A model generated the notes under the pieces. That model was not told the DNA's origin and searched no databases. It was given only the letters and a program-made list of their open reading frames with translations. A stretch of DNA of 64,000 bases from Candidatus Hydrothermus pacificus (GTDB taxonomy: Bacteria > Hydrothermota > Hydrothermia > Hydrothermales > Hydrothermaceae). Positions 19,996 through 49,174 of the stretch are shown piece after piece (positions within the stretch are counted from its first letter, which is position 1; each line of letters opens with the position of its first letter). Position numbers and translations under genes: made by a program. The stretch lies in contig MTOH01000008.1 in assembly GCA_002011615.1 (NCBI GenBank), forward strand, positions 6,460 to 70,459. The letters run 5' to 3'.

Positions 19996-21015
19996 TTATA
20001 TATACTTTTTCACACCCTCAATAATCTCTTTAAAGGGAGGAGTTTTAAACCACTTTCTTTTTGTTATTTCATTTGCATAGGATTTGTAGATATTTTCTAT
20101 TAGAACTTTCAGTTCTTCAGGAAGTTTTGGTGGAGGGTTTTCAACATAATCCTTCCAGTTTATTCTGTCTTTTTTCTTTGCGGATTCAACCTCTTTATAC
20201 CAATCTGTTTTTCTGTAATAAATCCTTGCGATTTCCTTGCTTACAGGGATTCCCTCATAGGTAAACCTGCATTCATCAAGGGTTCCAAGAGCATCAACAA
20301 GTATTACATTCCTTTTCTCATCAAAACCGTATTCAACTTTTCCATCCTCGTTGAAAAAACCCAGTTTTTTTGTTTCCTCTATTATCAAATTATTTATAAA
20401 TAAAGTTTTTTCTTTAATTTCTTTTAATTCCTCATCGGTTAAACCTGCAATCTCTTTTGCCTCCTCCCACTTAATGTATCTGTCTGTTTCCTCAAGTTTT
20501 GTTGAGACATCAAGAACTGGATTTTTAAGTTTCTGTCCTGGAACCGGCTCTGAATCAAGACCTAAATCTCTGTAGGTAATACTCCCCTCTTTTAATCTTC
20601 TGAAAACAGATGAGCCAGGAGGAAGGGAATTCCTGTAAATAATCTCAAGGGGAATTAAAAAATTAAATCTTTCCCTTTTATAAATTGAATAATCGTATCT
20701 GCCATTTTTAATTTCGGGTTTTAAAACCCTTAAAAGTTTTATCTCCATTACATTTGAAGGCTTTTCCAAGTCTTTAAGTCTTTTAACCTTCCCATCCTCA
20801 ACAAGACCTATGTAATGGGTTTTAAATCCCATATCTTCCAGTTTTTCAAAAAAATATGCTGTAACCAGGCAAATTGCACTACCTTTACCCTCTATATGGT
20901 CGGGCATTTCTCCCCAGTCAAAAACCGAATACCTGTCAGAGAATACAAATCTTCCTCTACCGGGCCTTGTGCCTTCGGATTTTTCAATCAAAACCAAATC
21001 TTTAACACTACCCAT
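19996..21015 (-). CDS. purC: Phosphoribosylaminoimidazole-succinocarboxamide synthase (SAICAR synthetase, long form)
   Basis: N-terminal GKVKDL...GRGRFVFSDRYSVFD matches the SAICAR synthetase ATP-binding region. It overlaps the purE end. Confidence 0.7.
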   Translation of the reverse strand: MGSVKDLVLIEKSEGTRPGRGRFVFSDRYSVFDWGEMPDHIEGKGSAICLVTAYFFEKLEDMGFKTHYIGLVEDGKVKRLKDLEKPSNVMEIKLLRVLKPEIKNGRYDYSIYKRERFNFLIPLEIIYRNSLPPGSSVFRRLKEGSITYRDLGLDSEPVPGQKLKNPVLDVSTKLEETDRYIKWEEAKEIAGLTDEELKEIKEKTLFINNLIIEETKKLGFFNEDGKVEYGFDEKRNVILVDALGTLDECRFTYEGIPVSKEIARIYYRKTDWYKEVESAKKKDRINWKDYVENPPPKLPEELKVLIENIYKSYANEITKRKWFKTPPFKEIIEGVKKYI

Positions 21016-21481
21016 CCTTTACCTCCTTATCCGCATCTTCAATTTCCTTTTTCTTTTTTTCCTGGTATTCTTTTATTTTTTCTCTTAGACTTTTATCCTT
21101 AATTGCAATTATTTTGGCAGCAGCAAGACCAGCCTGTTCAGGCTCTAAAACAGTTAAGGGAGCAACACCTGAAGGCATCCTCAATGTGGAAAATATGTCA
21201 GCACCACCGAATTTCTCGCTATAAGGAGGACAGGCAATAACAGGACTTGCAGTATTTGCGTCCACAAACCCGCTCAATGCATTGCTCCTTCCTGCAACAG
21301 TTATAAACACAACATCCTGATTTTCGTATTCTTTTATAATCTCCAGGACTTTTAAGGGAACCTTGTGGGCAGATGCAATCCTCATTTTGTAATCAATTCC
21401 GAATTCCTCAAGAGTTTTTGCAATCTTTTTTGAATGCTCTATATCCGATTTTGAACCCATTATAATAATAATTTTTGACAT
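21008..21481 (-). CDS. purE: N5-carboxyaminoimidazole ribonucleotide mutase
   Basis: IIIMGSKSD...ASAHKVP...VFITVAGRSNALSG PurE signature. Size is 157 aa. Confidence 0.9.
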   Translation of the reverse strand: MSKIIIIMGSKSDIEHSKKIAKTLEEFGIDYKMRIASAHKVPLKVLEIIKEYENQDVVFITVAGRSNALSGFVDANTASPVIACPPYSEKFGGADIFSTLRMPSGVAPLTVLEPEQAGLAAAKIIAIKDKSLREKIKEYQEKKKKEIEDADKEVKDG

Positions 21482-21536: not shown

Positions 21537-22502
21537 TCATATTTTTTCCATTGCTTTTTCTATTAACCGTTCTATAAAAAGTTTATAGGAAATTCCTGCA
21601 TAAAAAAGTGCCTTATAAAATCCAGAATCTCTTGAAATATCAGGATTTGGATTTGCTTCAATAAAATAAATTTCACCATTTTTATCCATTCTTAAGTCTA
21701 TCCTTCCGTAATCTCTCATCTCAAGAATTTTAAAAATTTTAATTGAAATTTCTTCAATTTCTTTTTTCTCTTTCTCATTAATCATTGCGGGATAATGGAC
21801 CGGGGTTTCTATATATTCTTTACTTTTTTTATTCCATTTTGAACTGTATGTTAATATTTTGGGTTCTGTTTTAAAAACTATCTCACCTATTGCTATAACC
21901 CTGTCATCAAATACTGAAACATTGAATTCTCTACCATCAATAAATTTTTCTGCAGAAAATTCTATATTTTTACCCTCAAGCTCCCTTACCCTCTTGTAAT
22001 ATTCTTCTTTTTTAAAAATTACATTTTTCTTTTCAATAAAAAGGCTTGCATCCTTTTTCCTTGGTTTTAAAATAAGGGGTAAAAAATCAGGGGATTCCTT
22101 ATCCGGAATAAAACAGGGTGGTGTTTTTATTCCATAATGAGAAACAATTATCTTTGCTTTTATTTTATCAAGGCATAGATAAAGAGCTGAAGGCGGAGAA
22201 CCTGTATAAGGAATTTTTAGAATTTCAAGAATTCCTGCTATGTGTGCTTCTCCTTCAGAATTTCCTTCAAAGTCCTCACACAGGTTAAAAACTAAATCAA
22301 AGTTTTTCTTTTTTAAAATATCAATCCACCTGTAATCTTTACTAACAGGTAAAAGAAAATAAGAATATCCTAAATCTGAAATGGTTTCTTTAACTAAATT
22401 TACCTCATCCATAACACCTTTTCTATCAGGTAAATCCCTTTCCTCGGGTTTGTTAAAAAGGATACATATTTTTCCTTTATCCTTTAATCCCATATCTTTC
22501 AA
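21537..22502 (-). CDS. D-alanine–D-alanine ligase-like ATP-grasp enzyme (paralogue A)
   Basis: 321 aa. It has the Ddl N-domain pattern (FNLCEDFEGNSEGEAHIAGILEILKIPYTGS), the ATP-grasp central region and the C-terminal EANPNPDISRDSGFYKALFYAGISY motif, which is Ddl-like. Confidence 0.7.
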   Translation of the reverse strand: MKDMGLKDKGKICILFNKPEERDLPDRKGVMDEVNLVKETISDLGYSYFLLPVSKDYRWIDILKKKNFDLVFNLCEDFEGNSEGEAHIAGILEILKIPYTGSPPSALYLCLDKIKAKIIVSHYGIKTPPCFIPDKESPDFLPLILKPRKKDASLFIEKKNVIFKKEEYYKRVRELEGKNIEFSAEKFIDGREFNVSVFDDRVIAIGEIVFKTEPKILTYSSKWNKKSKEYIETPVHYPAMINEKEKKEIEEISIKIFKILEMRDYGRIDLRMDKNGEIYFIEANPNPDISRDSGFYKALFYAGISYKLFIERLIEKAMEKI

Positions 22503-23469
22503 AGGCGCTTTCCAGAATATTTTTTATAATTTCTTCATATTTAAATCCCATTTTATAGGCCATTATAGGTAAATCACTTGTTTCTGGATTAAGACCAGGT
22601 AAAGGATTTATTTCAAGAAAATAGGGGTTATAGTTTTCATCAAGTCTGAAATCAAATCTTGAAAAATCTCTTAATCCAAGAAACTTAAAGAGTTTTAAAA
22701 CAGCTCTTTTTATCTCTTCTTGAGTTCTTTCTGGAATATCCGGTGGAACTATATACTCTACCTCTTCTTTAAAATTTCTTTTTACTTCAAGAGAATATAA
22801 AAATTCTGAGTTTTTAAGTTTTTTCGGGCTTATTTCCATTAAGCCAAAGAATTTTATATTTTCATTTCCTATAATTCCTGCTGTAATCTCCTTACCCCCT
22901 ATGAATTTTTCAACCAGGAGAGGTTTATTGTATTTATTAAAGAGTTCCTCTGCTTTTTCTTTCAGTTCGGAAAGGCTGTTTACCCTTGAAGATAGTCTGA
23001 GTCCTATGCTTGAACCCTCATCTTTAAGTTTTAAAACACATAGAGAATATTTAAATTTAAAATTTTTAATTTCCTTTTTGTTTTTAATTACTTTAAAAAA
23101 GGGGGTTTTAATTCCAAGAGATTTTGCAAATCTTTTACAGATTTCCTTATCAAGGGTTATGTTTAAAGCAAGGGGGTCAGAACCAGAATAGGGAATAGAA
23201 AGCATCTCACAAACAGAGGGCACATGTCCCTCCCTTGACCTTGTTCCGAACCCTTCTGCAATGTTGAAAACAAAGTCAGGTCTTTCTTTGAGTATTTTAT
23301 CAATAAAGCTTTTTCCACCTCCAAGTAGTGAAACTTCATGTCCAAAACCTTCAATTGTTTTTTTTAAAGCATCTACAACTTTCTCTGAGTCAAATTCTTC
23401 ATAAATATCTTCTGGAAAACCTTCAGGAATATTTTCTGGTTTTAAATCAAAGGAAATTCCGATTTTCAT
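22477..23469 (-). CDS. D-alanine–D-alanine ligase-like ATP-grasp enzyme (paralogue B)
   Basis: 330 aa. It has FNIAEGFGTRSREGHVPSVCEMLSIPYSGS, an ATP-grasp core and a C-terminal EINPLPGLNPETSDLPIMAYKMGFKY motif. It overlaps paralogue A by 26 nt. Confidence 0.7.
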   Translation of the reverse strand: MKIGISFDLKPENIPEGFPEDIYEEFDSEKVVDALKKTIEGFGHEVSLLGGGKSFIDKILKERPDFVFNIAEGFGTRSREGHVPSVCEMLSIPYSGSDPLALNITLDKEICKRFAKSLGIKTPFFKVIKNKKEIKNFKFKYSLCVLKLKDEGSSIGLRLSSRVNSLSELKEKAEELFNKYNKPLLVEKFIGGKEITAGIIGNENIKFFGLMEISPKKLKNSEFLYSLEVKRNFKEEVEYIVPPDIPERTQEEIKRAVLKLFKFLGLRDFSRFDFRLDENYNPYFLEINPLPGLNPETSDLPIMAYKMGFKYEEIIKNILESAFERYGIKG

Positions 23470-23616
23470 TCTTTAAAACTTCAAAACATAAACAGGATGA
23501 AGTTTTGCAACCGGTTTAAAGAGGGAAAGTTCTAAGGACCTTATAAATACCTTTTGCCCCCTGTATTCAAAGGGAAGGTCCCGTGGTGACCTTATGAATT
23601 CAACTCCTTCTGTTCC

Positions 23617-24687
23617 CTATGTTAAGAGAATTTCAAAAAGTCTTTTTTCTTCTATTTCTTTAACACCCTTTACCTTCAAAATATGGGGGAAATTATATCC
23701 GGAACCATGGGGAATTATATTGGCATTTTTCAGGGAATCCATCAAATTGTATTTTTTGGCTCTTTTATCAAATCCGAGAGTTTTTATCACCTCTTTTTTT
23801 ATATTCTTTATTCCCTTTACAAGATATGCTGGCAATTCTGACCTCATAACAAAGGGGAAAATCTTTTTATCATCCTCAAAAGAATGGGCTCCAAGAAGAA
23901 TTTCTCCTTTATTTAAAATTCCCTGATGGGTTTCATTTGATATAATGTCAAAAGACCCGAAGAGATTTTCAGCAGCCAAAAGCCTTTTTCTTTTTGAAAA
24001 CTCATCTGCATAAAAATAAAACTCATAATACTCCTGTGCATCTTTCCCTTCAAGATAATGGAGTTTCCCAAAGGGTGTATCAAGAACTTTCGCCTTCTCT
24101 TTTAATGCCCTGCTTTCATCAAAGTAAAGACCTATTCCCTTTTTTGTTTCCCCCTTAAGTTCAGAAGAGGATGTATGAAGTATAAAAGCATAGGAAGGAA
24201 AAGAATTTCCCTCAAGGGGTTCTACCTCAAAGATATCAATAAAGTGATTTGATTCATAAAAATCCCATTTTATCTTTATTCCATCAATTTTAATGTTTTT
24301 TTCTTGAAGTTTTAAAAGATTTTTTATAAGCTTTTCATAGGAAGGAAGGTAATTTATTCCTCCAACAAGCATTCCACAGGTATTTGGTTTTATATCAAGG
24401 GGGAAGACCTCCAGTTTTTCCTTTGAACCGAAAACAATCTTGCCTCCATATCCAAAACCCTGATTCCATCTCGTTTTATTTCTTGTGATTGTCATATCAG
24501 GAGTTCCTATAAAATGGGGAATCTCTTTTAATCCAAATTCCCTTTGCATAAAAAGGAGTTTTGCAATTCCGTATCTTGTATTCAAAATGCACATTTCCTC
24601 GGCAACATCCTTAACTCCCATTGAAAATATAAGTTTCTCTGCTTTTAAAAGCAGTTCCTTCTTTAAATCAATTTCTTTCAATTTCAT
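23617..24687 (-). CDS. Conserved hypothetical protein (356 aa), co-translated with kamA
   Basis: The start overlaps the kamA stop (ATGA). No domain recognised by eye (GTPDMTITRNKTRWNQGFGYGG, NHFIDIFEVEP, IIPHGSGYNFPH). Confidence 0.4.
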   Translation of the reverse strand: MKLKEIDLKKELLLKAEKLIFSMGVKDVAEEMCILNTRYGIAKLLFMQREFGLKEIPHFIGTPDMTITRNKTRWNQGFGYGGKIVFGSKEKLEVFPLDIKPNTCGMLVGGINYLPSYEKLIKNLLKLQEKNIKIDGIKIKWDFYESNHFIDIFEVEPLEGNSFPSYAFILHTSSSELKGETKKGIGLYFDESRALKEKAKVLDTPFGKLHYLEGKDAQEYYEFYFYADEFSKRKRLLAAENLFGSFDIISNETHQGILNKGEILLGAHSFEDDKKIFPFVMRSELPAYLVKGIKNIKKEVIKTLGFDKRAKKYNLMDSLKNANIIPHGSGYNFPHILKVKGVKEIEEKRLFEILLT

Positions 24688-26031
24688 CTATTCCTCCTTC
24701 TTTCAATTCTTTCTGTTTTCTCAGGAATTAAATAACCCCTTTTTCCCTTTAAAAGTCCGTATATACCCTCTTTATTTTCCCATAGAATATCTTCTTCCTT
24801 CTTTTTGTTCCAGGTGTATGATACAATCATTCCTTCATAATTTCTTAAAATTATTTTCCCATCTGACATTGAAATTACATAGTTGGGCATAACAGGAATT
24901 TTGCCTCCTCCGTGTGGCATATCTACTACATAGGTGGGAACAGAGAGTCCTGAAATATGACCTCTCAATCCCTCAATTATTTCAATTCCCTTGTAAACAG
25001 AGGTTCTGAAATGGGAGACTCCTTTTGTAGGGTCACAGTGAAAAAGATAATAGGGTCTTACCTTTATTTTTAAAAGACCTTTCAAAAGCTCTCTCATAAC
25101 AGGGACACTATCATTAATTCCTTTCAAAAGGACTGTCTGATTGTTAACAGGTATTCCGCATTTTAGAAGGTTTAAAATAGCCCTTTTTGAATATTCTGTT
25201 ATTTCTCTCGGGTGATTGAAATGGGTATTTAACCAGAGAAAATCGTATTGTGATAAAAGGTTTAAAAGCTCCCGGTCAAAAAGTCTCATGGGAAGCAAAA
25301 CAGGAATCCTGGAACCGATTCTAACAACCTCTATGGAGGGAATGGTTTTAAGACCATCTAAAATAAATTTTAATTTTAGTAAGGGCAGAGTTAAAGGGTC
25401 ACCTCCTGAAAGAATAACATCTGTTATTTCCGGATGATTTTTTAAATAATCTAAAACTCTTTCAAATTCCTGATAAATTTTTACTGTTCCTCCCTTACCA
25501 AGAAGTCTTTTTCTTGTGCAGTGTCTGCAATAGGTAGCACAGAAATTTGTTGTTATTAAAAGAACTCTGTCAGGGTACCTGTGAACAAGACCAGGAACAA
25601 CTTCATCCTCTTCTTCCTCAAGGGGGGTCTCTTTCGCCCTTATAGTCAAGTAGTTCATCAATAACTGGTATTGCCTGCTTTTTTACAGGGTCATCAGGGT
25701 CAAAGGGATCTATAAGGGAAAGATAATAGGGGGAAATAAGAAGGGGATAAATCCTGTGGACTCTTTTCACATTTTCTTTTTCTTCTGAATTTAAATAAGG
25801 GAAGGCTTCAAAAAGATGAGAAGGATTTTTTATCATGTTCTTTATCTGCCATCTCCAGTCAAGAAACACTTCAGGAGGAATATTTTTATAAAGAGGGAGT
25901 TTCTGCCAGGGATAGACTTCCCTCTCAATGACGAGAGAAAGGGAAGGGGGTTCTTCCTTATCTCCCCCGGTTTCTTTACCGGTAGAGAAATTATTCACCC
26001 TTTTAGTTTTCTCACCTTTTTTATTTTTCAT
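24684..26031 (-). CDS. kamA: Lysine (or other amino acid) 2,3-aminomutase family radical SAM enzyme (KamA), interrupted by an apparent frameshift
   Basis: The N-terminal ORF (25618..26031) carries the KamA N-region (LISPYYLSLIDPFDPDDPVKKQAIPVIDEL). The C-terminal ORF (24684..25661) carries VHRYPDRVLLITTNFCATYCRHCTRKR (CxxxCxxC) and the rest of the KamA core. The two frames overlap at a C6 run on the coding strand. Confidence 0.8.
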
Positions 26032-26153
26032 TTCTCCCTCTTAAAGTTTTAATTTACTTAACATAAATTTAAGTATTTTAATAATAATTCAATAATACAA
26101 AATTTGTCAAGTATAATTTGAAATTTTTACAAAAATAAGTTTATAATTAATGT

Positions 26154-26714
26154 ATGAATTTCGAAAAGGAAGTAGGTTATAGAATAAGAAAGATTAGAAA
26201 AAGTGAAGGCATAACTTTGAAGGAACTATCTTCAAGGGCGGGTATAACAAAGTCAGCCCTTTCCCAGATTGAAAGGGGAATAATAACACCCTCAATAGTC
26301 ACCTTCAAATCAATTCTTGATGCTCTTGGAGTTAGTTTTTCTGAATTCTTTGAAAAAGAAGATAAAGAAAGTTTTTTTGTTTTGAGAAAGAGCGATTATA
26401 AATACCTTGACAAAGAAGACATTGACCTTCTTCTTTTAACTCCTTTTGGCAGTAATAAATCCTTTGATATTTTAAGAATACGGATACCACCTTCTACATC
26501 CACAAGAGTTGAGTCTCCACATGATGGAGAGGAATCGGGCATTGTATTAAGAGGGGCAGTTTATTTTTACTTTGGTAAAAAGAAATTAAAAATAAAAAGA
26601 GGAGAAACTTATCTTTTTTATCCTGATAAGCCTCACTTTTTTGAAAATCGCTCTAAAAATAAACCCGTAGTATTACTTCATATTGTTTCCCCACCCAATA
26701 TTGATGTATTTTGA
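26154..26714 (+). CDS. XRE-family HTH transcriptional regulator with C-terminal cupin domain
   Basis: N-terminal HTH_3 (GITLKELSSRAGITKSALSQIERG) and a C-terminal cupin barrel. It is divergent from the kamA cassette. Confidence 0.8.
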   Translation: MNFEKEVGYRIRKIRKSEGITLKELSSRAGITKSALSQIERGIITPSIVTFKSILDALGVSFSEFFEKEDKESFFVLRKSDYKYLDKEDIDLLLLTPFGSNKSFDILRIRIPPSTSTRVESPHDGEESGIVLRGAVYFYFGKKKLKIKRGETYLFYPDKPHFFENRSKNKPVVLLHIVSPPNIDVF

Positions 26715-30712: not shown

Positions 30713-31321
30713 ATGAAAAACACCGATGAAAAAATAATTCATCTTCTGGATAAGGTTTTACAGATTACAAGGTATATTCAATGGCAGATAAATAAAAAAA
30801 CAGGTATTTCTCCTTTAAGTGCCCAGATAATAGAGTACCTGGGGAATGCTTCCCGGGATTTAAGAACCCCTGCAAAAATTGCAGAGGAACTTGGCATCAC
30901 AAGACCAACTGTTACAGAGGCATTAAAATCACTCATTAAAAAAGGCTATATAAAGGAAAAGGTCAGCCCCAAGGATAAGAGGTTTAAAATTCTTTATCTA
31001 ACAGAGAAAGGGAAAAAGCTTTTAAAGAATTCAAATCTAAACTACAAAGATATATTAAAGAAGTCTATTAAAAATACTGATAAGGCTCAAAAAGAAAATT
31101 TATTTTATTCCCTTATAAACTTTGTTGCGGATTTAAATAAAAGGGGAATACTTCCCATTGCAAGAATATGTTTTAATTGTAAAAATTTTGAAAAAAATAA
31201 ATTTGAGGGCTCAAAAAAGCCCCATTATTGTAAACTTTTAAAACAGAGAATGGGTAATTTTGATTTAAATGTTAACTGTGAGGAGAATTTAAAAAGGAGG
31301 TCTTTATGGGTAAAAAAATGA
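30713..31321 (+). CDS. MarR-family winged-helix regulator with C-terminal Cys-rich extension
   Basis: wHTH region (AKIAEELGITRPTVTEALKSLIKKGYI) plus C-terminal CFNCKNF...HYCK...NCEE. Its end overlaps the cytochrome gene start. Confidence 0.65.
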   Translation: MKNTDEKIIHLLDKVLQITRYIQWQINKKTGISPLSAQIIEYLGNASRDLRTPAKIAEELGITRPTVTEALKSLIKKGYIKEKVSPKDKRFKILYLTEKGKKLLKNSNLNYKDILKKSIKNTDKAQKENLFYSLINFVADLNKRGILPIARICFNCKNFEKNKFEGSKKPHYCKLLKQRMGNFDLNVNCEENLKRRSLWVKK

Positions 31322-32511
31322 TGTATGTGCTTATAATTGCGGGATTTTTTATCCCGCAGGCTCTGAAAGCGAGTAAATGTGTAACCTGTCATAAAAAAAT
31401 AACACCAAGAATTGTTCAGCAGTGGAAAGAAAGCAAACATTCAAAGAATGATGTTGATTGCTCTGTGTGTCACGGTGAACACAGCAAAGGGATAAAGGAT
31501 ATAGACAAATTGAAAATGCCAACTCCTGAAACCTGTGCTCAGTGTCATGAGGAAAGGGTTAAAGAGTTTAAAGCAGGGAAGCATGCCCTTGCATGGGTGG
31601 CAATGAAGGCAATGCCAATGGTGATGCATCAGCCAATGCAGATAGCAGGCGAAAGAGGATTTAAAGGATGTTCGGGATGTCATAAAATAGGTTTAAAAAC
31701 AGAAGAAGAGATAAAGGAGGGTAAATTCAGATATGGGTCAGGTTCCTGTGATGCATGCCATACAAGGCATAAATTTTCAGTGGAAGAAGCAAAGGACCCG
31801 AGAGCATGCAGAACATGCCATATGGGATTTGACCATCCTCAATGGGAAATGTGGTCAACCTCAAAACACGGAACAATATGGGAAATTGAAGGCAATACTG
31901 GAAGAGCACCAACATGCCAGACCTGTCATATGGTAAATGGGAACCATGCGGTTATGACCGCCTGGGGATTCTTAGCGTTGAGAGTTCCTGAAGATGATAA
32001 AGAATGGTGGAATGATAGAGTAACAATCCTTCAGGCACTTGGTGTTCTTGATGAAAAGGGAAATCCTACAGAGAGATTTGAGGCGGTTAAACTTGCCAAG
32101 GTTGCAAGACTTACAAAAGAAGACTGGCAAAAAGAAAGGGATAAGATGATAAAAGTCTGTTCAAAATGTCATTCAAAAACATATGCAAAAGAACAACTTG
32201 AATCAGCTGATAAAGTTCTCAGGGAAGCAGATAAACTTATGGCAGAAGCAATAAGAACCGTAAAAGAACTCTATAAAAAAGGAACTTTAAAGACACCCAA
32301 GGGATGGAGATATGTTCCTGACCTCTTGCAGTTCTATGAGGCAAAGACATCAATTGAGCAGGAACTTTATGTTATGTTTCTTGAGTACAGAATGAGAACA
32401 TTCCAGGGTGCCTTTCACATGAATCCCGATTACATGCACTGGTACGGATGGGCAAAGATGAAAGAATCGCTTCAGAAAATAGAGGATGAAGCAGAGAAAT
32501 TAAAGAAATAA
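31306..32511 (+). CDS. Octahaem c-type cytochrome (epsilon-Hao / octahaem nitrite reductase-like)
   Basis: Signal peptide plus eight CxxCH motifs (CVTCH, CSVCH, CAQCH, CSGCH, CDACH, CRTCH, CQTCH, CSKCH) in 401 aa. Confidence 0.8.
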   Translation: MGKKMMYVLIIAGFFIPQALKASKCVTCHKKITPRIVQQWKESKHSKNDVDCSVCHGEHSKGIKDIDKLKMPTPETCAQCHEERVKEFKAGKHALAWVAMKAMPMVMHQPMQIAGERGFKGCSGCHKIGLKTEEEIKEGKFRYGSGSCDACHTRHKFSVEEAKDPRACRTCHMGFDHPQWEMWSTSKHGTIWEIEGNTGRAPTCQTCHMVNGNHAVMTAWGFLALRVPEDDKEWWNDRVTILQALGVLDEKGNPTERFEAVKLAKVARLTKEDWQKERDKMIKVCSKCHSKTYAKEQLESADKVLREADKLMAEAIRTVKELYKKGTLKTPKGWRYVPDLLQFYEAKTSIEQELYVMFLEYRMRTFQGAFHMNPDYMHWYGWAKMKESLQKIEDEAEKLKK

Positions 32512-48006: not shown

Positions 48007-49108
48007 ATCTCCACATTATGTCTTCTGCTATTCTTTTTATCGGATTTTTCATTAATTTTAAAACTTTTCTGTATTCTTCAATGTCCTTACCATAGGGGTC
48101 ATAAATATCCATCTTATTTGATGAATAGCCTGAAAGAAGCCTGACTTTTTCTCCAAAACCGAGATAGGAGAGTCTGGCAAAATGTTTTCTTTCCATTACA
48201 AATATAAAATCAGCCCATTCAAGGGTCTCAACATCAATGGGTCGCGCTTTATGGAAAGATAAATCCATTCCCATTTCTTTGAGAACCTTCATGGCATTTT
48301 CACTTAGCCGACTTCCCGGAACAGGGTTTATGCCCCTTGATTTTATTCTCACAATTTTCCTTAAACCAGAGGGTAAATATTTTTTCATAAGTCCCATTGC
48401 CATGGGTGACCTGCAGGTATTGCCGGTGCATATAAAGAGTATATTAAGAGTAATATCTCTGTTCAGTTTAATCTTCCGCAGGATTGTTTCTTCTATTGTA
48501 ACTATTGATACAGGACCTTTACGTAAAAGTTTAAAGGGGTGTGTTGAAACATCAAGCACAGTAGAAGGGGGAAGCCCATAGGAATTCTCCGGGAGCACAT
48601 AATCAACCTGTTTTTTTATAAGTGAATCAATCCTTTTGTATCCTCTAACAGGAGATTTCCCTGAAACATTGGCTGATGTAGTCGCAAGTGGTCCTGTTTT
48701 ATCAATTAATTCAAGGATTAAAGGATAATCAGGAATCCTTATACCCACCTTTTTATCCTTTGATATCCATAAAAAATTTGCGTTCAGTTTTGATTTAAAA
48801 ACAAGGGTCAGAGGGCCTGGCCAGAATTCGGAAATTATTTTTTCTCTCAAAATTCCGAGCTTTAAAGGCATCACAAATTTTTTTAATTCATTTTTGCTGT
48901 TAATAAATATAATGAGAGGTTTATCAAATTTTCTTTTTTTTATAGAATATATTTTTTTCTGACCTTTGAGGTTTAAAAAATGGGTCCCCAGACCCATCAC
49001 TGTATCTGTAGGTAATGCTATTACACCACCTTTCTTTATAACTTCACCTGCTTTCTCTATCTCCAGCTTTCTTGTGAGAGCATTCATAAAAACTAACAGA
49101 AAGCCCAC
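47996..49108 (-). CDS. L-threonylcarbamoyladenylate synthase (Sua5/YrdC/TsaC) fused to a low-molecular-weight protein tyrosine/arginine phosphatase
   Basis: N-terminal YrdC fold (GGVIALPTDTVMGLG). The C-terminal LMW-PTP P-loop is ILFICTGNTCRSPMAMG (CX5R). Size is 370 aa. Confidence 0.75.
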   Translation of the reverse strand: MGFLLVFMNALTRKLEIEKAGEVIKKGGVIALPTDTVMGLGTHFLNLKGQKKIYSIKKRKFDKPLIIFINSKNELKKFVMPLKLGILREKIISEFWPGPLTLVFKSKLNANFLWISKDKKVGIRIPDYPLILELIDKTGPLATTSANVSGKSPVRGYKRIDSLIKKQVDYVLPENSYGLPPSTVLDVSTHPFKLLRKGPVSIVTIEETILRKIKLNRDITLNILFICTGNTCRSPMAMGLMKKYLPSGLRKIVRIKSRGINPVPGSRLSENAMKVLKEMGMDLSFHKARPIDVETLEWADFIFVMERKHFARLSYLGFGEKVRLLSGYSSNKMDIYDPYGKDIEEYRKVLKLMKNPIKRIAEDIMWRYEI

Positions 49109-49174
49109 GGACGGAATTGAACCGCCGACCTCGTCCTTACCAAGGACGTGCTCTGCCGACTGAGCTACGTGGGC
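49102..49174 (-). tRNA. tRNA-Thr (anticodon GGU)
   Basis: Reverse complement GCCCACGTAGCTCAGTCGGCAGAGCACGTCCTTGGTAAGGACGAGGTCGGCGGTTCAATTCCGTCCGTGGGCT folds as a cloverleaf. It has a 7-bp acceptor stem, a GGT anticodon in the CTTGGTAAG loop and a TTCAATT T-loop. No encoded CCA. Confidence 0.85.

What the first reader, a model, noticed from the sequence alone, without database searches (positions are those of the whole stretch)
21537..26714. KamA 2,3-aminomutase – unknown protein – two tandem Ddl-like ATP-grasp ligases in one operon with a divergent XRE–cupin regulator
A full-length KamA-family radical SAM aminomutase is co-translated (ATGA overlap) with a 356-aa protein of unrecognisable family. 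After a 147-bp gap, two D-Ala–D-Ala-ligase-like ATP-grasp genes follow and overlap each other by 26 nt. All are on the same strand, upstream of purE-purC. Aminomutase plus carboxylate–amine ligases is the logic of a pathway that makes a beta-amino acid (beta-lysine or beta-glutamate) and then condenses it into a dipeptide or oligopeptide. That could be a compatible solute, a cell-wall stem peptide variant or a protein/EF-P-type modification. The locus is not near mur/ftsQ, so neither ligase looks like the housekeeping ddl. Ddl homologues that ligate non-canonical substrates are known (e.g. MysD in mycosporine biosynthesis). I know of no described pathway that pairs KamA with paired Ddl-like ligases.
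Basis: partly seen in the sequence, partly recalled or inferred. Interest (0 to 1): 0.7.

Follow-up and report, generated by a model that had tools for sequence, protein, structure and literature searches.

The report
Broken beta-lysine peptide operon with RtcB-like gene
This is one bacterium's apparently inactivated copy of a widespread, unstudied gene set that probably turns lysine into beta-lysine and joins it into a small peptide, and its "unknown" gene encodes a very divergent relative of the RNA-joining enzyme RtcB.

Summary
KamA is not intact: an extra C in a C-run (25622-25627) splits it into two ORFs. The "356-aa unknown" is a 404-aa gene (23473-24687) cut by an in-frame TAG that replaces a conserved Trp, so the "147-bp gap" is coding. 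Relatives with 88% DNA identity carry both genes intact.

KamA-LigA-LigB, usually followed by a small GNAT, is a widespread cassette in many anaerobic phyla. I found no paper describing it. In the WOR-3 clade the GNAT is absent and the RtcB-like gene sits inside the operon. Spirochaete loci join the same gene types in a different order.

Best reading: a beta-lysine-containing small amide product, with the RtcB-like enzyme as an accessory nucleotidyl-transfer step. The product and the RtcB-like role are inferred, not shown.

The parts
26154..26714 (+). Divergent XRE-HTH plus cupin regulator (186 aa), weakly PuuR-like
   Evidence: Pfam HTH_3 9.5e-16 and Cupin_2 1.4e-11. NCBIfam PuuR 83.6 bits, below the 211 cutoff. 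The same divergent gene is present in L002, L083/L084 and L174.
26032..26153 (.). Intergenic region holding back-to-back promoter-like sites
   Evidence: The two best sigma-70-like matches of the scanned region lie here: minus strand TTGACA-18-TATTAT (26110..26081) and plus strand TTGAAA-18-TATAAT (26118..26147), 11/12 each. The total number of matches in the region is not above chance. No Rfam riboswitch was found.
24684..26031 (-). KamA-family lysine 2,3-aminomutase gene, interrupted by a +1 frameshift (448 aa when one C is removed)
   Evidence: It appears as ORFs 25618-26031 and 24684-25661 in different frames. The repaired protein matches C. subterminale LAM 2A5H at E 1.6e-127, with CxxxCxxC, R134, D293, D330 and K337 conserved. 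Intact 448-451-aa orthologues are in L083-L086, L002 and L174.
25622..25627 (-). C6 homopolymer carrying the 1-nt insertion that breaks KamA
   Evidence: Sequence read directly. In the alignment to L083/L085 the window has GACCCCCCTTGA against GACCCTC-TTGA. The split products are on record from NCBI, JGI/IMG, Logan and MetaClust.
23473..24687 (-). RtcB-fold protein gene (404 codons) with a premature amber codon. It was read as a 356-aa ORF plus a 147-bp 'gap'.
23617..23619 (-). In-frame TAG replacing the conserved Trp codon TGG (codon 357)
   Evidence: ACATAGGGAAC in the window against ACATGGGGAAC in L083/L085 and TGG in L001/L002. A 404-aa member of the same 90% cluster exists (P0121).
22477..23469 (-). 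LigA: Ddl-fold ATP-grasp ligase (330 aa), intact
21537..22502 (-). LigB: second Ddl-type ATP-grasp ligase (321 aa from TTG, 318 aa from ATG), 30% identical to LigA
   Evidence: Pfam Dala_Dala_lig_C 1.2e-24. Best Ddl model 138 bits, below 243. Catalytic residues are kept; at the E15 position the window has D while the LigB family mostly has A; also H63->E, S150->A, Y216->W, G276->D.
19996..21481 (-). purE (21008-21481) and purC (19996-21015), co-oriented downstream. Probably co-transcribed but not part of the pathway.
   Evidence: Pfam AIRC 5.6e-47 and SAICAR_synt 1.8e-25. They abut LigB in L002 and L174 but are absent after LigB in the closest relative L083.

Best explanation
The locus is the WOR-3/Hydrothermales version of a widespread, uncharacterised cassette for a beta-lysine-containing small amide compound. 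In this genome it is probably freshly inactivated.

Proposed steps:
1. KamA (radical SAM, PLP) isomerises L-lysine to beta-lysine. This is inferred from fully conserved lysine-binding residues.
2. LigA and LigB are two catalytically complete Ddl-fold ATP-grasp enzymes with remodelled substrate pockets. Each makes one amide bond through an acyl-phosphate, giving a beta-lysine di- or tripeptide or a short oligomer. LigA keeps the Glu/Ser that hold a free amino group of the acyl donor. LigB families mostly lack that Glu and gain an Asp in the pocket. This fits LigB extending LigA's product or binding a cationic side chain.
3. In most lineages a small RimI-like GNAT then N-acetylates the product. 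That step resembles N-epsilon-acetyl-beta-lysine or NAGGN-type solutes, or streptothricin-type self-protection.
4. In the WOR-3 clade the GNAT is missing. Instead, an RtcB-fold enzyme is translationally coupled between KamA and LigA. It keeps the candidate metal-binding Cys/His and the nucleophilic His. It most likely performs an NTP-dependent nucleotidyl-transfer or phosphate-activating step on the product or a precursor.

The XRE-cupin protein is the likely local, ligand-sensing regulator. In this window a frameshift in KamA and an amber codon in the RtcB-like gene mean the pathway is probably off.

Shown: gene anatomy, both lesions, folds, residue conservation and synteny. Inferred: the substrate, the order of steps, the product, and any role for the RtcB-like protein.
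For: KamA:
- E 1.6e-127 to lysine 2,3-aminomutase 2A5H.
- C125/C129/C132, R134, D293, D330 and K337 are conserved in the window and in all 47 cassette KamAs.

Ligases:
- K97, K144, E180, K215, R255, D257, E270 and N272 are kept.
- H63, Y216, E15/S150 (in LigB) and G276 (in LigB) are replaced, and the replacements are family-wide.
- Scores are below every Ddl cutoff.

Cassette:
- KamA-LigA-LigB-GNAT is found in L087, L088 and L089.
- Among 83 LigA loci with enough sequence: KamA adjacent in 33/55, LigB adjacent in 37/60, GNAT present in 36/54, all four genes in 22/38.
- About 9 further loci have LigA...KamA-LigB.

RtcB-like gene:
- C104, H148, H171, H254, H327, R376 and K403 are invariant and Y375 is nearly invariant (>=90%).
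- Colinear hhalign matches of NHF, LH(S/T), HG(A/S)G and the C-terminal motif to RtcB.
- The same operon is found in L001, L002, L083-L086 and L174.
- There is an independent linkage in Spirochaetales and L067, with a different gene order and a different ligase subtype.
- A kinase-RtcB-like fusion lies in a radical SAM/ATP-grasp/PLP cluster.

Lesions.
Against: - No product, substrate or activity has been measured for any gene of the cassette.
- 75 of 80 RtcB-like loci lack KamA and the ligases. Their commonest neighbour is an HD phosphohydrolase (31/80), so the family's core job may have nothing to do with beta-lysine.
- None of the 83 LigA loci from other phyla has the RtcB-like gene.
- Beta-lysine peptides have no obvious phosphate or hydroxyl group for RtcB-type chemistry.
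- The sequence alignments to RtcB are individually weak (E 0.04-0.07).
- The GNAT is only weakly RimI-like and could act on a protein.
- Amino-acid change in the window lineage is not accelerated, so the two lesions could still be sequencing errors rather than true inactivation.
Confidence: 0.5

Rival explanations
1. The RtcB-like gene is an RNA (or DNA) end-joining or repair enzyme. It merely shares a stress-induced transcript with a beta-lysine-peptide pathway and takes no part in the chemistry of that pathway.
For: - The fold is that of RNA ligase RtcB.
- The family mostly occurs away from KamA and the ligases, next to an HD phosphohydrolase (31/80), a TIGR00375-type protein (8/80) or a DksA-type zinc finger (9/80).
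- The cassette works without it in 83 other loci.
Against: - It has a 4-nt start/stop overlap with KamA and a 3-nt spacer to LigA, conserved over relatives with 71-88% DNA identity.
- A second, independent arrangement occurs in Spirochaetales/L067 with different ligase subtypes.
- A third context has a radical SAM mutase-like enzyme, an ATP-grasp, a PLP enzyme and a fused small-molecule-type kinase.
- No RtcA, archease or RtcR was noticed among the recurrent neighbours, although I did not search for them specifically.
Confidence: 0.25
2. The cassette modifies a protein rather than making a free metabolite. Beta-lysine would be ligated to a side chain or terminus, as in EF-P beta-lysylation or RimK/LysX-type tailing, and the RimI-like GNAT would acetylate the same protein.
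For: - KamA paralogue EpmB makes beta-lysine for EF-P (established knowledge).
- The GNATs of the cassette hit only the RimI model, and weakly (E 9e-15 to 6e-7, below cutoff).
Against: - The KamAs score far higher to AblA (441-495 bits) than to EpmB (229-245 bits, cutoff 369).
- No EpmA-like gene and no conserved candidate target gene appears among the recurrent neighbours.
Confidence: 0.12
3. The two ligases supply an unusual peptidoglycan stem-peptide dipeptide containing beta-lysine, making them a cell-wall variant of Ddl.
For: Their closest relatives in sequence and structure are Ddl and VanA.
Against: - There are no mur/fts neighbours in the window or in related loci.
- The D-Ala1/D-Ala2 contact residues are replaced.
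- Scores are below the Ddl cutoffs.
- The cassette occurs in Dehalococcoidales MAGs, an order whose cultured members lack peptidoglycan. This last point is my own knowledge and was not tested for this MAG.
- The frequent GNAT partner has no role in stem-peptide synthesis.
Confidence: 0.04
4. The frameshift and the amber codon are sequencing or assembly errors, and the operon is intact and active in the real organism.
For: - One lesion lies in a homopolymer, a classic error site.
- Amino-acid change relative to the sister lineage is not accelerated in any of the four genes.
Against: - The truncated products are on record from several sources and on contigs of different length (71069, 70459, 32114 bp).
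- TGG->TAG is a substitution, not a homopolymer slip.
- The rest of the 64-kb window shows no other obviously split gene. Both lesions fall in adjacent genes of one operon.
Confidence: 0.25

Closest known systems
AblA/AblB pathway for N-epsilon-acetyl-beta-lysine (methanogens and some bacteria)
   Same: A lysine-type KamA enzyme makes beta-lysine. In most versions of the cassette a GNAT acetyltransferase follows. The KamAs score best to the AblA model.
   Different: Two ATP-grasp ligases are inserted between the aminomutase and the GNAT. The GNAT is about 160 aa and does not hit an AblB model. KamA is below the AblA equivalog cutoff (441-495 bits against 525). In the window clade there is no GNAT at all.
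PylB-PylC steps of pyrrolysine biosynthesis
   Same: The logic is the same: a radical SAM enzyme rearranges lysine, then an ATP-grasp ligase joins the rearranged amino acid to an amine. This is established knowledge. PylC was recovered as a structural neighbour of LigA.
D-alanine-D-alanine ligase / VanA family
   Same: Fold and all ATP/Mg/catalytic residues are shared. These are the best sequence hits in PDB and NCBIfam.
   Different: Identity to DdlB is 23-24%. Scores fall below every curated cutoff. H63, Y216, S281/L282 and, in LigB, E15/S150/G276 are replaced. There is no cell-wall gene context.
RtcB 3'-phosphate/5'-hydroxyl RNA ligase
   Different: About 80 residues shorter, with 10-15% identity. 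The Pfam RtcB model does not detect it (1 of 36 members at E 0.11). The first metal-site Asp position is D or N (pattern). It lies in metabolic-looking operons or next to an HD protein.
NAGGN (N-acetylglutaminylglutamine amide) synthesis by Ngg/AsnO
   Same: A GNAT activity combined with ATP-grasp dipeptide ligation yields an N-acetylated small peptide used as an osmolyte. This comparison is from my own knowledge.
   Different: Different ATP-grasp subfamily, no aminomutase, no beta-amino acid. I did not test this comparison with tools.

Membership tests
KamA family / lysine 2,3-aminomutase | CxxxCxxC radical SAM cluster motif and PLP-binding Lys337 | tested here: met
   C164/C168/C171 and K377 of the repaired protein align to C125/C129/C132 and K337 of 2A5H. 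They are conserved in 47/47 cassette KamAs.
KamA family / lysine 2,3-aminomutase | Lysine-binding residues: Asp293 and Asp330 for the epsilon-ammonium, Arg134 for the carboxylate. Glutamate 2,3-aminomutase has Lys/Asn instead. | tested here: met
   D333, D370 and R173 in the window protein; D/D/R in 47/47.
KamA family / lysine 2,3-aminomutase | Curated model score | tested here: inconclusive
   The intact sister protein scores 309 bits against the TIGR00238 KamA-family cutoff of 199 (met). It scores 470.7 bits against the AblA equivalog cutoff of 525.4 (not met).
KamA family / lysine 2,3-aminomutase | Uninterrupted reading frame in this window | tested here: not met
   A +1 insertion in the C6 run at 25622-25627.
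KamA family / lysine 2,3-aminomutase | Inter-subunit zinc site (Cys268 plus C-terminal Cys375/377/380 of the clostridial enzyme) | tested here: not met
   The C268 position is S here and never C in 47 sequences. The C-terminal tail of the window protein contains no Cys.
[quoted passage not shown] | ATP-grasp fold with catalytic K97, K144, E180, K215, R255, D257, E270, N272 | tested here: met
[quoted passage not shown] | D-Ala-binding residues (E15-S150-Y216 triad, H63, S281, L282) | tested here: not met
   H63->E in both families. Y216->R in LigA and ->W in LigB. In LigB, E15->A/D and S150->A. Positions 281/282 are variable.
[quoted passage not shown] | Curated model score | tested here: not met
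   Best model PRK01372: 168.2 bits (LigA) and 138.1 bits (LigB) against a cutoff of 243.
[quoted passage not shown] | mur/fts cell-wall gene neighbourhood | tested here: not met
   No such genes flank the operon in the window or in L083, L087-L089 or L174.
RtcB RNA ligase | RtcB fold | tested here: met
RtcB RNA ligase | Match to the family's sequence model (Pfam PF01139) | tested here: not met
   No hit for the window protein. 1 of 36 family members hits at E 0.11. A profile search of PDB gives RtcB at E 1.7.
RtcB RNA ligase | Metal-binding Cys/His set and nucleophilic His that accepts GMP | tested here: inconclusive
   C104, H148, H171, H254 and H327 are invariant. NHF and LH(S/T) align to E. 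coli N167-H168 and H185 (E 0.066). HGSG aligns to H337-GAG (E 0.039). I had no residue-level structural superposition.
RtcB RNA ligase | GTP/Mn-dependent sealing of 3'-P or 2',3'-cyclic-P RNA ends to 5'-OH ends | not testable with these tools
   This needs a biochemical assay.
AblA/AblB N-epsilon-acetyl-beta-lysine pathway | AblB-type beta-lysine acetyltransferase adjacent to the aminomutase | tested here: not met
   There is no GNAT of the cassette type anywhere in the window. The cassette GNATs elsewhere hit only RimI and AAC(6') models, weakly, and no AblB model.
EpmA/EpmB EF-P beta-lysylation | EpmB-type KamA paralogue | tested here: not met
   The EpmB model TIGR03821 gives 197-245 bits against a cutoff of 369.3, well below the scores to AblA.

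The most novel reading that the evidence does not exclude
The 404-aa protein would be the first RtcB-fold enzyme that works on a small molecule instead of a nucleic acid. It would use a His-NMP intermediate to activate or nucleotidylate a beta-lysine peptide or a phosphorylated precursor, and in WOR-3 and some spirochaetes it would take the place that N-acetylation holds in the common KamA-LigA-LigB-GNAT cassette. That would mean RtcB chemistry has been recruited into metabolite biosynthesis. The APH-kinase fusion in L171 points the same way.
Probability: 0.25. Interest if true: 0.85.

Novelty: new variant of a known kind. Interest (0 to 1): 0.62.

Why it matters
- A cassette of lysine 2,3-aminomutase plus two non-Ddl ATP-grasp ligases, usually with a GNAT, is common in uncultured anaerobic phyla: WOR-3/Hydrothermales, Dehalococcoidia, Aminicenantia, Acidobacteriota, Omnitrophota and Dadabacteria. 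I could find no described product for it. Solving it would probably reveal a new beta-lysine-based solute, polycation or modification.
- The 404-aa gene defines a compact, strongly conserved RtcB-fold family shared by bacteria and archaea. Current domain libraries miss it. Its genomic company (HD phosphohydrolase, a kinase fusion, radical SAM/ATP-grasp clusters) hints at a role outside classical RNA ligation.
- For annotation: these ligases are being named 'D-alanine--D-alanine ligase' in public records. That name is likely wrong.

Tried and rejected
Searches that gave nothing:
- Pfam, NCBIfam and PDB sequence searches of the 356-aa ORF. Only structure prediction resolved it.
- Profile search of PDB: RtcB only at E 1.7, behind chance hits such as MqsA.
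- The afdb50 fold library was not available.
- Exact look-up of the truncated protein's contigs failed.
- Literature searches on KamA, ATP-grasp, Ddl, RtcB and beta-lysyl found no paper on this cassette or this RtcB-like family.
- PADLOC: no defence-system match.
- Phage collection: no homologue of the RtcB-like protein.
- Rfam: no riboswitch; the only hit in the window is a tRNA.

Tests that did not discriminate:
- A relative-rate test for relaxed selection in the window lineage showed no excess change.
- Contexts of distant RtcB-like members (L172, L173) were uninformative.

Ideas considered and rejected:
- Beta-glutamate or beta-arginine as the product. Asp293/Asp330 are conserved and the AblA model is the best hit.
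- Lysine fermentation. No kamDE, kdd, kce or kal genes are nearby.
- purE-purC as part of the pathway. They are absent from the closest relative's locus.
- The amber codon as pyrrolysine or programmed readthrough. Every relative has TGG at that position.

Full report
ANATOMY. On the minus strand the window carries, from 26031 down to 19996, a KamA-type gene, the 'unknown' gene, two Dala_Dala_lig_C ATP-grasp genes, purE and purC. An XRE-HTH/cupin regulator lies divergently at 26154-26714. The two best promoter-like matches of the scanned region sit back to back in the 122-bp KamA-regulator spacer, although the total number of such matches is not above chance. Rfam finds no riboswitch.

KamA is not one ORF. 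A 137-aa piece (25618-26031) and a 325-aa piece (24684-25661) lie in different frames. The junction is GAGACCCCCCTTGAGG, with a C6 run at 25622-25627. Removing one C restores ...ERDPLEEEEDEVVPGLVHRYPDRV..., a 448-aa protein.

The '356-aa' ORF ends at a TAG (23617-23619). All homologues have Trp at that position. The next 48 codons still read GTEGVEFIRSPRDLPFEYRGQKVFIRSLELSLFKPVAKLHPVYVLKF, nearly identical to the 404-aa relatives. The true gene is therefore 23473-24687.

A sister lineage seen in four samples (L083-L086) is 88% identical in DNA over the whole operon. It has GACCCTC-TTGA and TGG at the two sites and encodes an intact 448-aa KamA and a 404-aa protein. More distant WOR-3 MAGs (L001, L002, L174) are intact too.

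The truncated products are on record from NCBI, JGI/IMG, Logan and MetaClust, on contigs of 71069, 70459 and 32114 bp. The rest of the 64-kb window shows no other obviously split gene. A relative-rate test shows no extra amino-acid change in the window lineage. The lesions are therefore either very recent or, less likely, errors.

KamA. The repaired protein matches Clostridium subterminale lysine 2,3-aminomutase (2A5H) at E 1.6e-127. The three cluster cysteines, Arg134, Asp293, Asp330 and the PLP lysine Lys337 are all conserved. The same holds for all 47 KamAs collected from related cassettes. The zinc-site cysteines are absent. The proteins score best to the AblA model but below its equivalog cutoff, and far below the EpmB cutoff.

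I aligned E. coli DdlB with 71 LigA and 33 LigB sequences. All ATP, Mg and catalytic residues are conserved. The D-Ala contacts are not:
- His63 is Glu in both families.
- Tyr216 is Arg in LigA and Trp in LigB.
- LigB has also lost Glu15 (mostly Ala in the family, Asp in the window) and Ser150 (Ala), and has Asp in place of Gly276.

They are therefore active amide ligases with new substrates, not housekeeping Ddl. No mur or fts genes are nearby.

THE CASSETTE IS WIDESPREAD. LigA has thousands of homologues at 45-55% identity. The source names given include WOR-3/Hydrothermales, Aminicenantia, Acidobacteriota, Thermodesulfobacteriota, Chloroflexi/Dehalococcoidia, Dadabacteria and Omnitrophota. 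Most are labelled 'D-alanine--D-alanine ligase'.

Three long contigs show KamA-LigA-LigB-GNAT as overlapping genes. Across 83 LigA loci, counting only those with enough sequence:
- KamA is immediately upstream in 33/55.
- LigB is immediately downstream in 37/60.
- A roughly 160-aa GNAT follows in 36/54.
- All four genes are present in 22/38.

Most of the remaining loci show a second layout: LigA, a histidine kinase, a sigma-54 response regulator, then KamA-LigB. The GNAT hits only RimI and AAC(6') models, weakly, and no AblB model. None of the 83 loci carries the RtcB-like gene. The window carries no GNAT of this type, no HD partner and no canonical RtcB. Seven literature searches found no paper on this cassette.

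In 36 family members, Cys104, His148, His171, His254, His327, Arg376 and Lys403 are invariant, and Tyr375 is conserved in at least 90% of them. Weak but colinear profile alignments place the following:
- SNHFID on RtcB's GNHFIE.
- LHTSS on LHSGS.
- IPHGSGY on the HGAGR motif that carries the GMP-accepting histidine.
- The C-terminal PxEYRG...YVLK on RtcB's PxAYK...VK.

I read this as a probably active nucleotidyl-transferase or ligase. I had no residue-level superposition, so the site assignment is provisional.

The family is compact, with 344 representatives at 50% clustering in 1.8 billion proteins. It is nevertheless found in many bacterial and archaeal phyla at 43-50% identity.

WHAT THE RtcB-LIKE GENE KEEPS COMPANY WITH. 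In 80 genome loci:
- The commonest neighbour is an adjacent, co-oriented HD phosphohydrolase (31 loci).
- A DksA-type zinc finger occurs in 9 loci.
- A TIGR00375-type protein occurs in 8 loci.
- Ddl-like ligases occur in 7 loci and KamA in 5.

The KamA-linked loci fall into two kinds. The WOR-3 kind has the window's order, KamA-RtcBL-LigA-LigB. A Spirochaetales/unclassified kind has KamA-Lig-RtcBL(-203-aa Cys-rich protein-Lig). Its ligases are only 34-37% identical to LigA and carry different pocket residues. Two gene orders and two ligase subtypes linked to the same family argue for a functional link rather than accident.

There is a third hint. One member is fused to an N-terminal APH-type kinase. 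It lies between two HydE/PylB-like radical SAM enzymes, an ATP-grasp, a HisC/CobD-like PLP enzyme, an SDR and HAD hydrolases. That looks like small-molecule biosynthesis involving a phosphorylated intermediate. RtcB chemistry guanylylates a phosphate monoester, and a hydroxyl then displaces the GMP. From my own knowledge, this is formally the same as the CobU/CobS steps of cobalamin nucleotide-loop assembly, so a small-molecule role is chemically reasonable. It is unproven.

MOST LIKELY MECHANISM. Lysine is converted to beta-lysine by KamA. Two successive ATP-grasp ligations by LigA and LigB give a small beta-lysine peptide. The product is then capped, by N-acetylation in most phyla. In the WOR-3 clade an RtcB-like nucleotidyl-transfer step of unknown target takes that position. 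The whole operon is under an XRE-cupin ligand-sensing regulator. This regulator is conserved divergently in L002, L083 and L174, and a weaker homologue lies upstream in L091 and L120.

I favour a free metabolite, either an osmolyte-like or a polycationic compound, over a protein or cell-wall modification. The reasons are that LigA is structurally a Ddl-clade small-molecule ligase and that no target or mur genes travel with the cassette. In this particular genome the pathway is probably switched off by the two lesions.

VERDICT. The finding is more interesting than ordinary. It is an uncharacterised, phylogenetically broad beta-lysine cassette, and here it is joined to a new RtcB-fold family. 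All functional statements beyond folds, residues and synteny are inference.

Noticed in passing
L003-L080 (for example L059 7330-7986, L003 9254-9922): The RtcB-like family's commonest neighbour is an adjacent, co-oriented HD-domain phosphohydrolase of about 216 aa (31 of 80 loci). It hits Pfam HD at 1.9e-13 and is only weakly like TIGR00295/HDIG. This pair may be the family's ancestral functional unit.
   Followed up: partly
L171 6001-8232 (P0258): A 743-aa fusion of an APH-type kinase domain with the RtcB-like domain. It lies in a cluster with two HydE/PylB-like radical SAM enzymes, an ATP-grasp, a HisC/CobD-like PLP enzyme, an SDR and HAD hydrolases.
   Followed up: partly
L104, L110, L124, L129, L146, L148, L153, L167: An alternative layout of the cassette: LigA, then a histidine kinase and a sigma-54-type response regulator, then KamA-LigB 4-5 kb downstream, with TatC upstream. 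This suggests two-component control in one lineage.
   Followed up: no
L087 8524-10781: In one cassette the GNAT is followed by a Peptidase_S51 (cyanophycinase/dipeptidase E family) gene and a DcuC-type transporter. These could be a degradation or export pair for the product. The peptidase was seen in only 1 of 83 loci.
   Followed up: partly
L056 9239-9850, L047 6690-7295: A 203-aa cysteine-rich protein with no Pfam match sits between the RtcB-like gene and the second ligase in the spirochaete version of the operon.
   Followed up: no
P0030 and P0045: One Desulfobacteraceae MAG (4.99-Mb contig) carries two copies of the RtcB-like gene (JSV50_09755 and JSV50_10180), so the family can be paralogous within a genome.
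   Followed up: no
window 19996-21481; L002 11096-12576; L174 11169-12625: purE-purC abut or overlap the end of LigB in three WOR-3 genomes but not in the closest relative (L083). They seem to ride on the same transcript in part of the clade.
   Followed up: partly
window 31306-32511: A 401-aa ORF with several CxxCH haem-binding motifs (a multihaem cytochrome c-like protein) follows a MarR-like ORF at 30713-31321. This was judged by eye from the translation only.
   Followed up: no
window 49102-49174: The only RNA gene found in the window is tRNA-Thr (GGT), on the minus strand.
   Followed up: yes
public annotations of LigA homologues: Many members of the LigA family are named 'D-alanine--D-alanine ligase' in NCBI/JGI records. 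They score below the curated Ddl cutoffs and have different substrate-pocket residues, so the name is probably wrong.
   Followed up: partly
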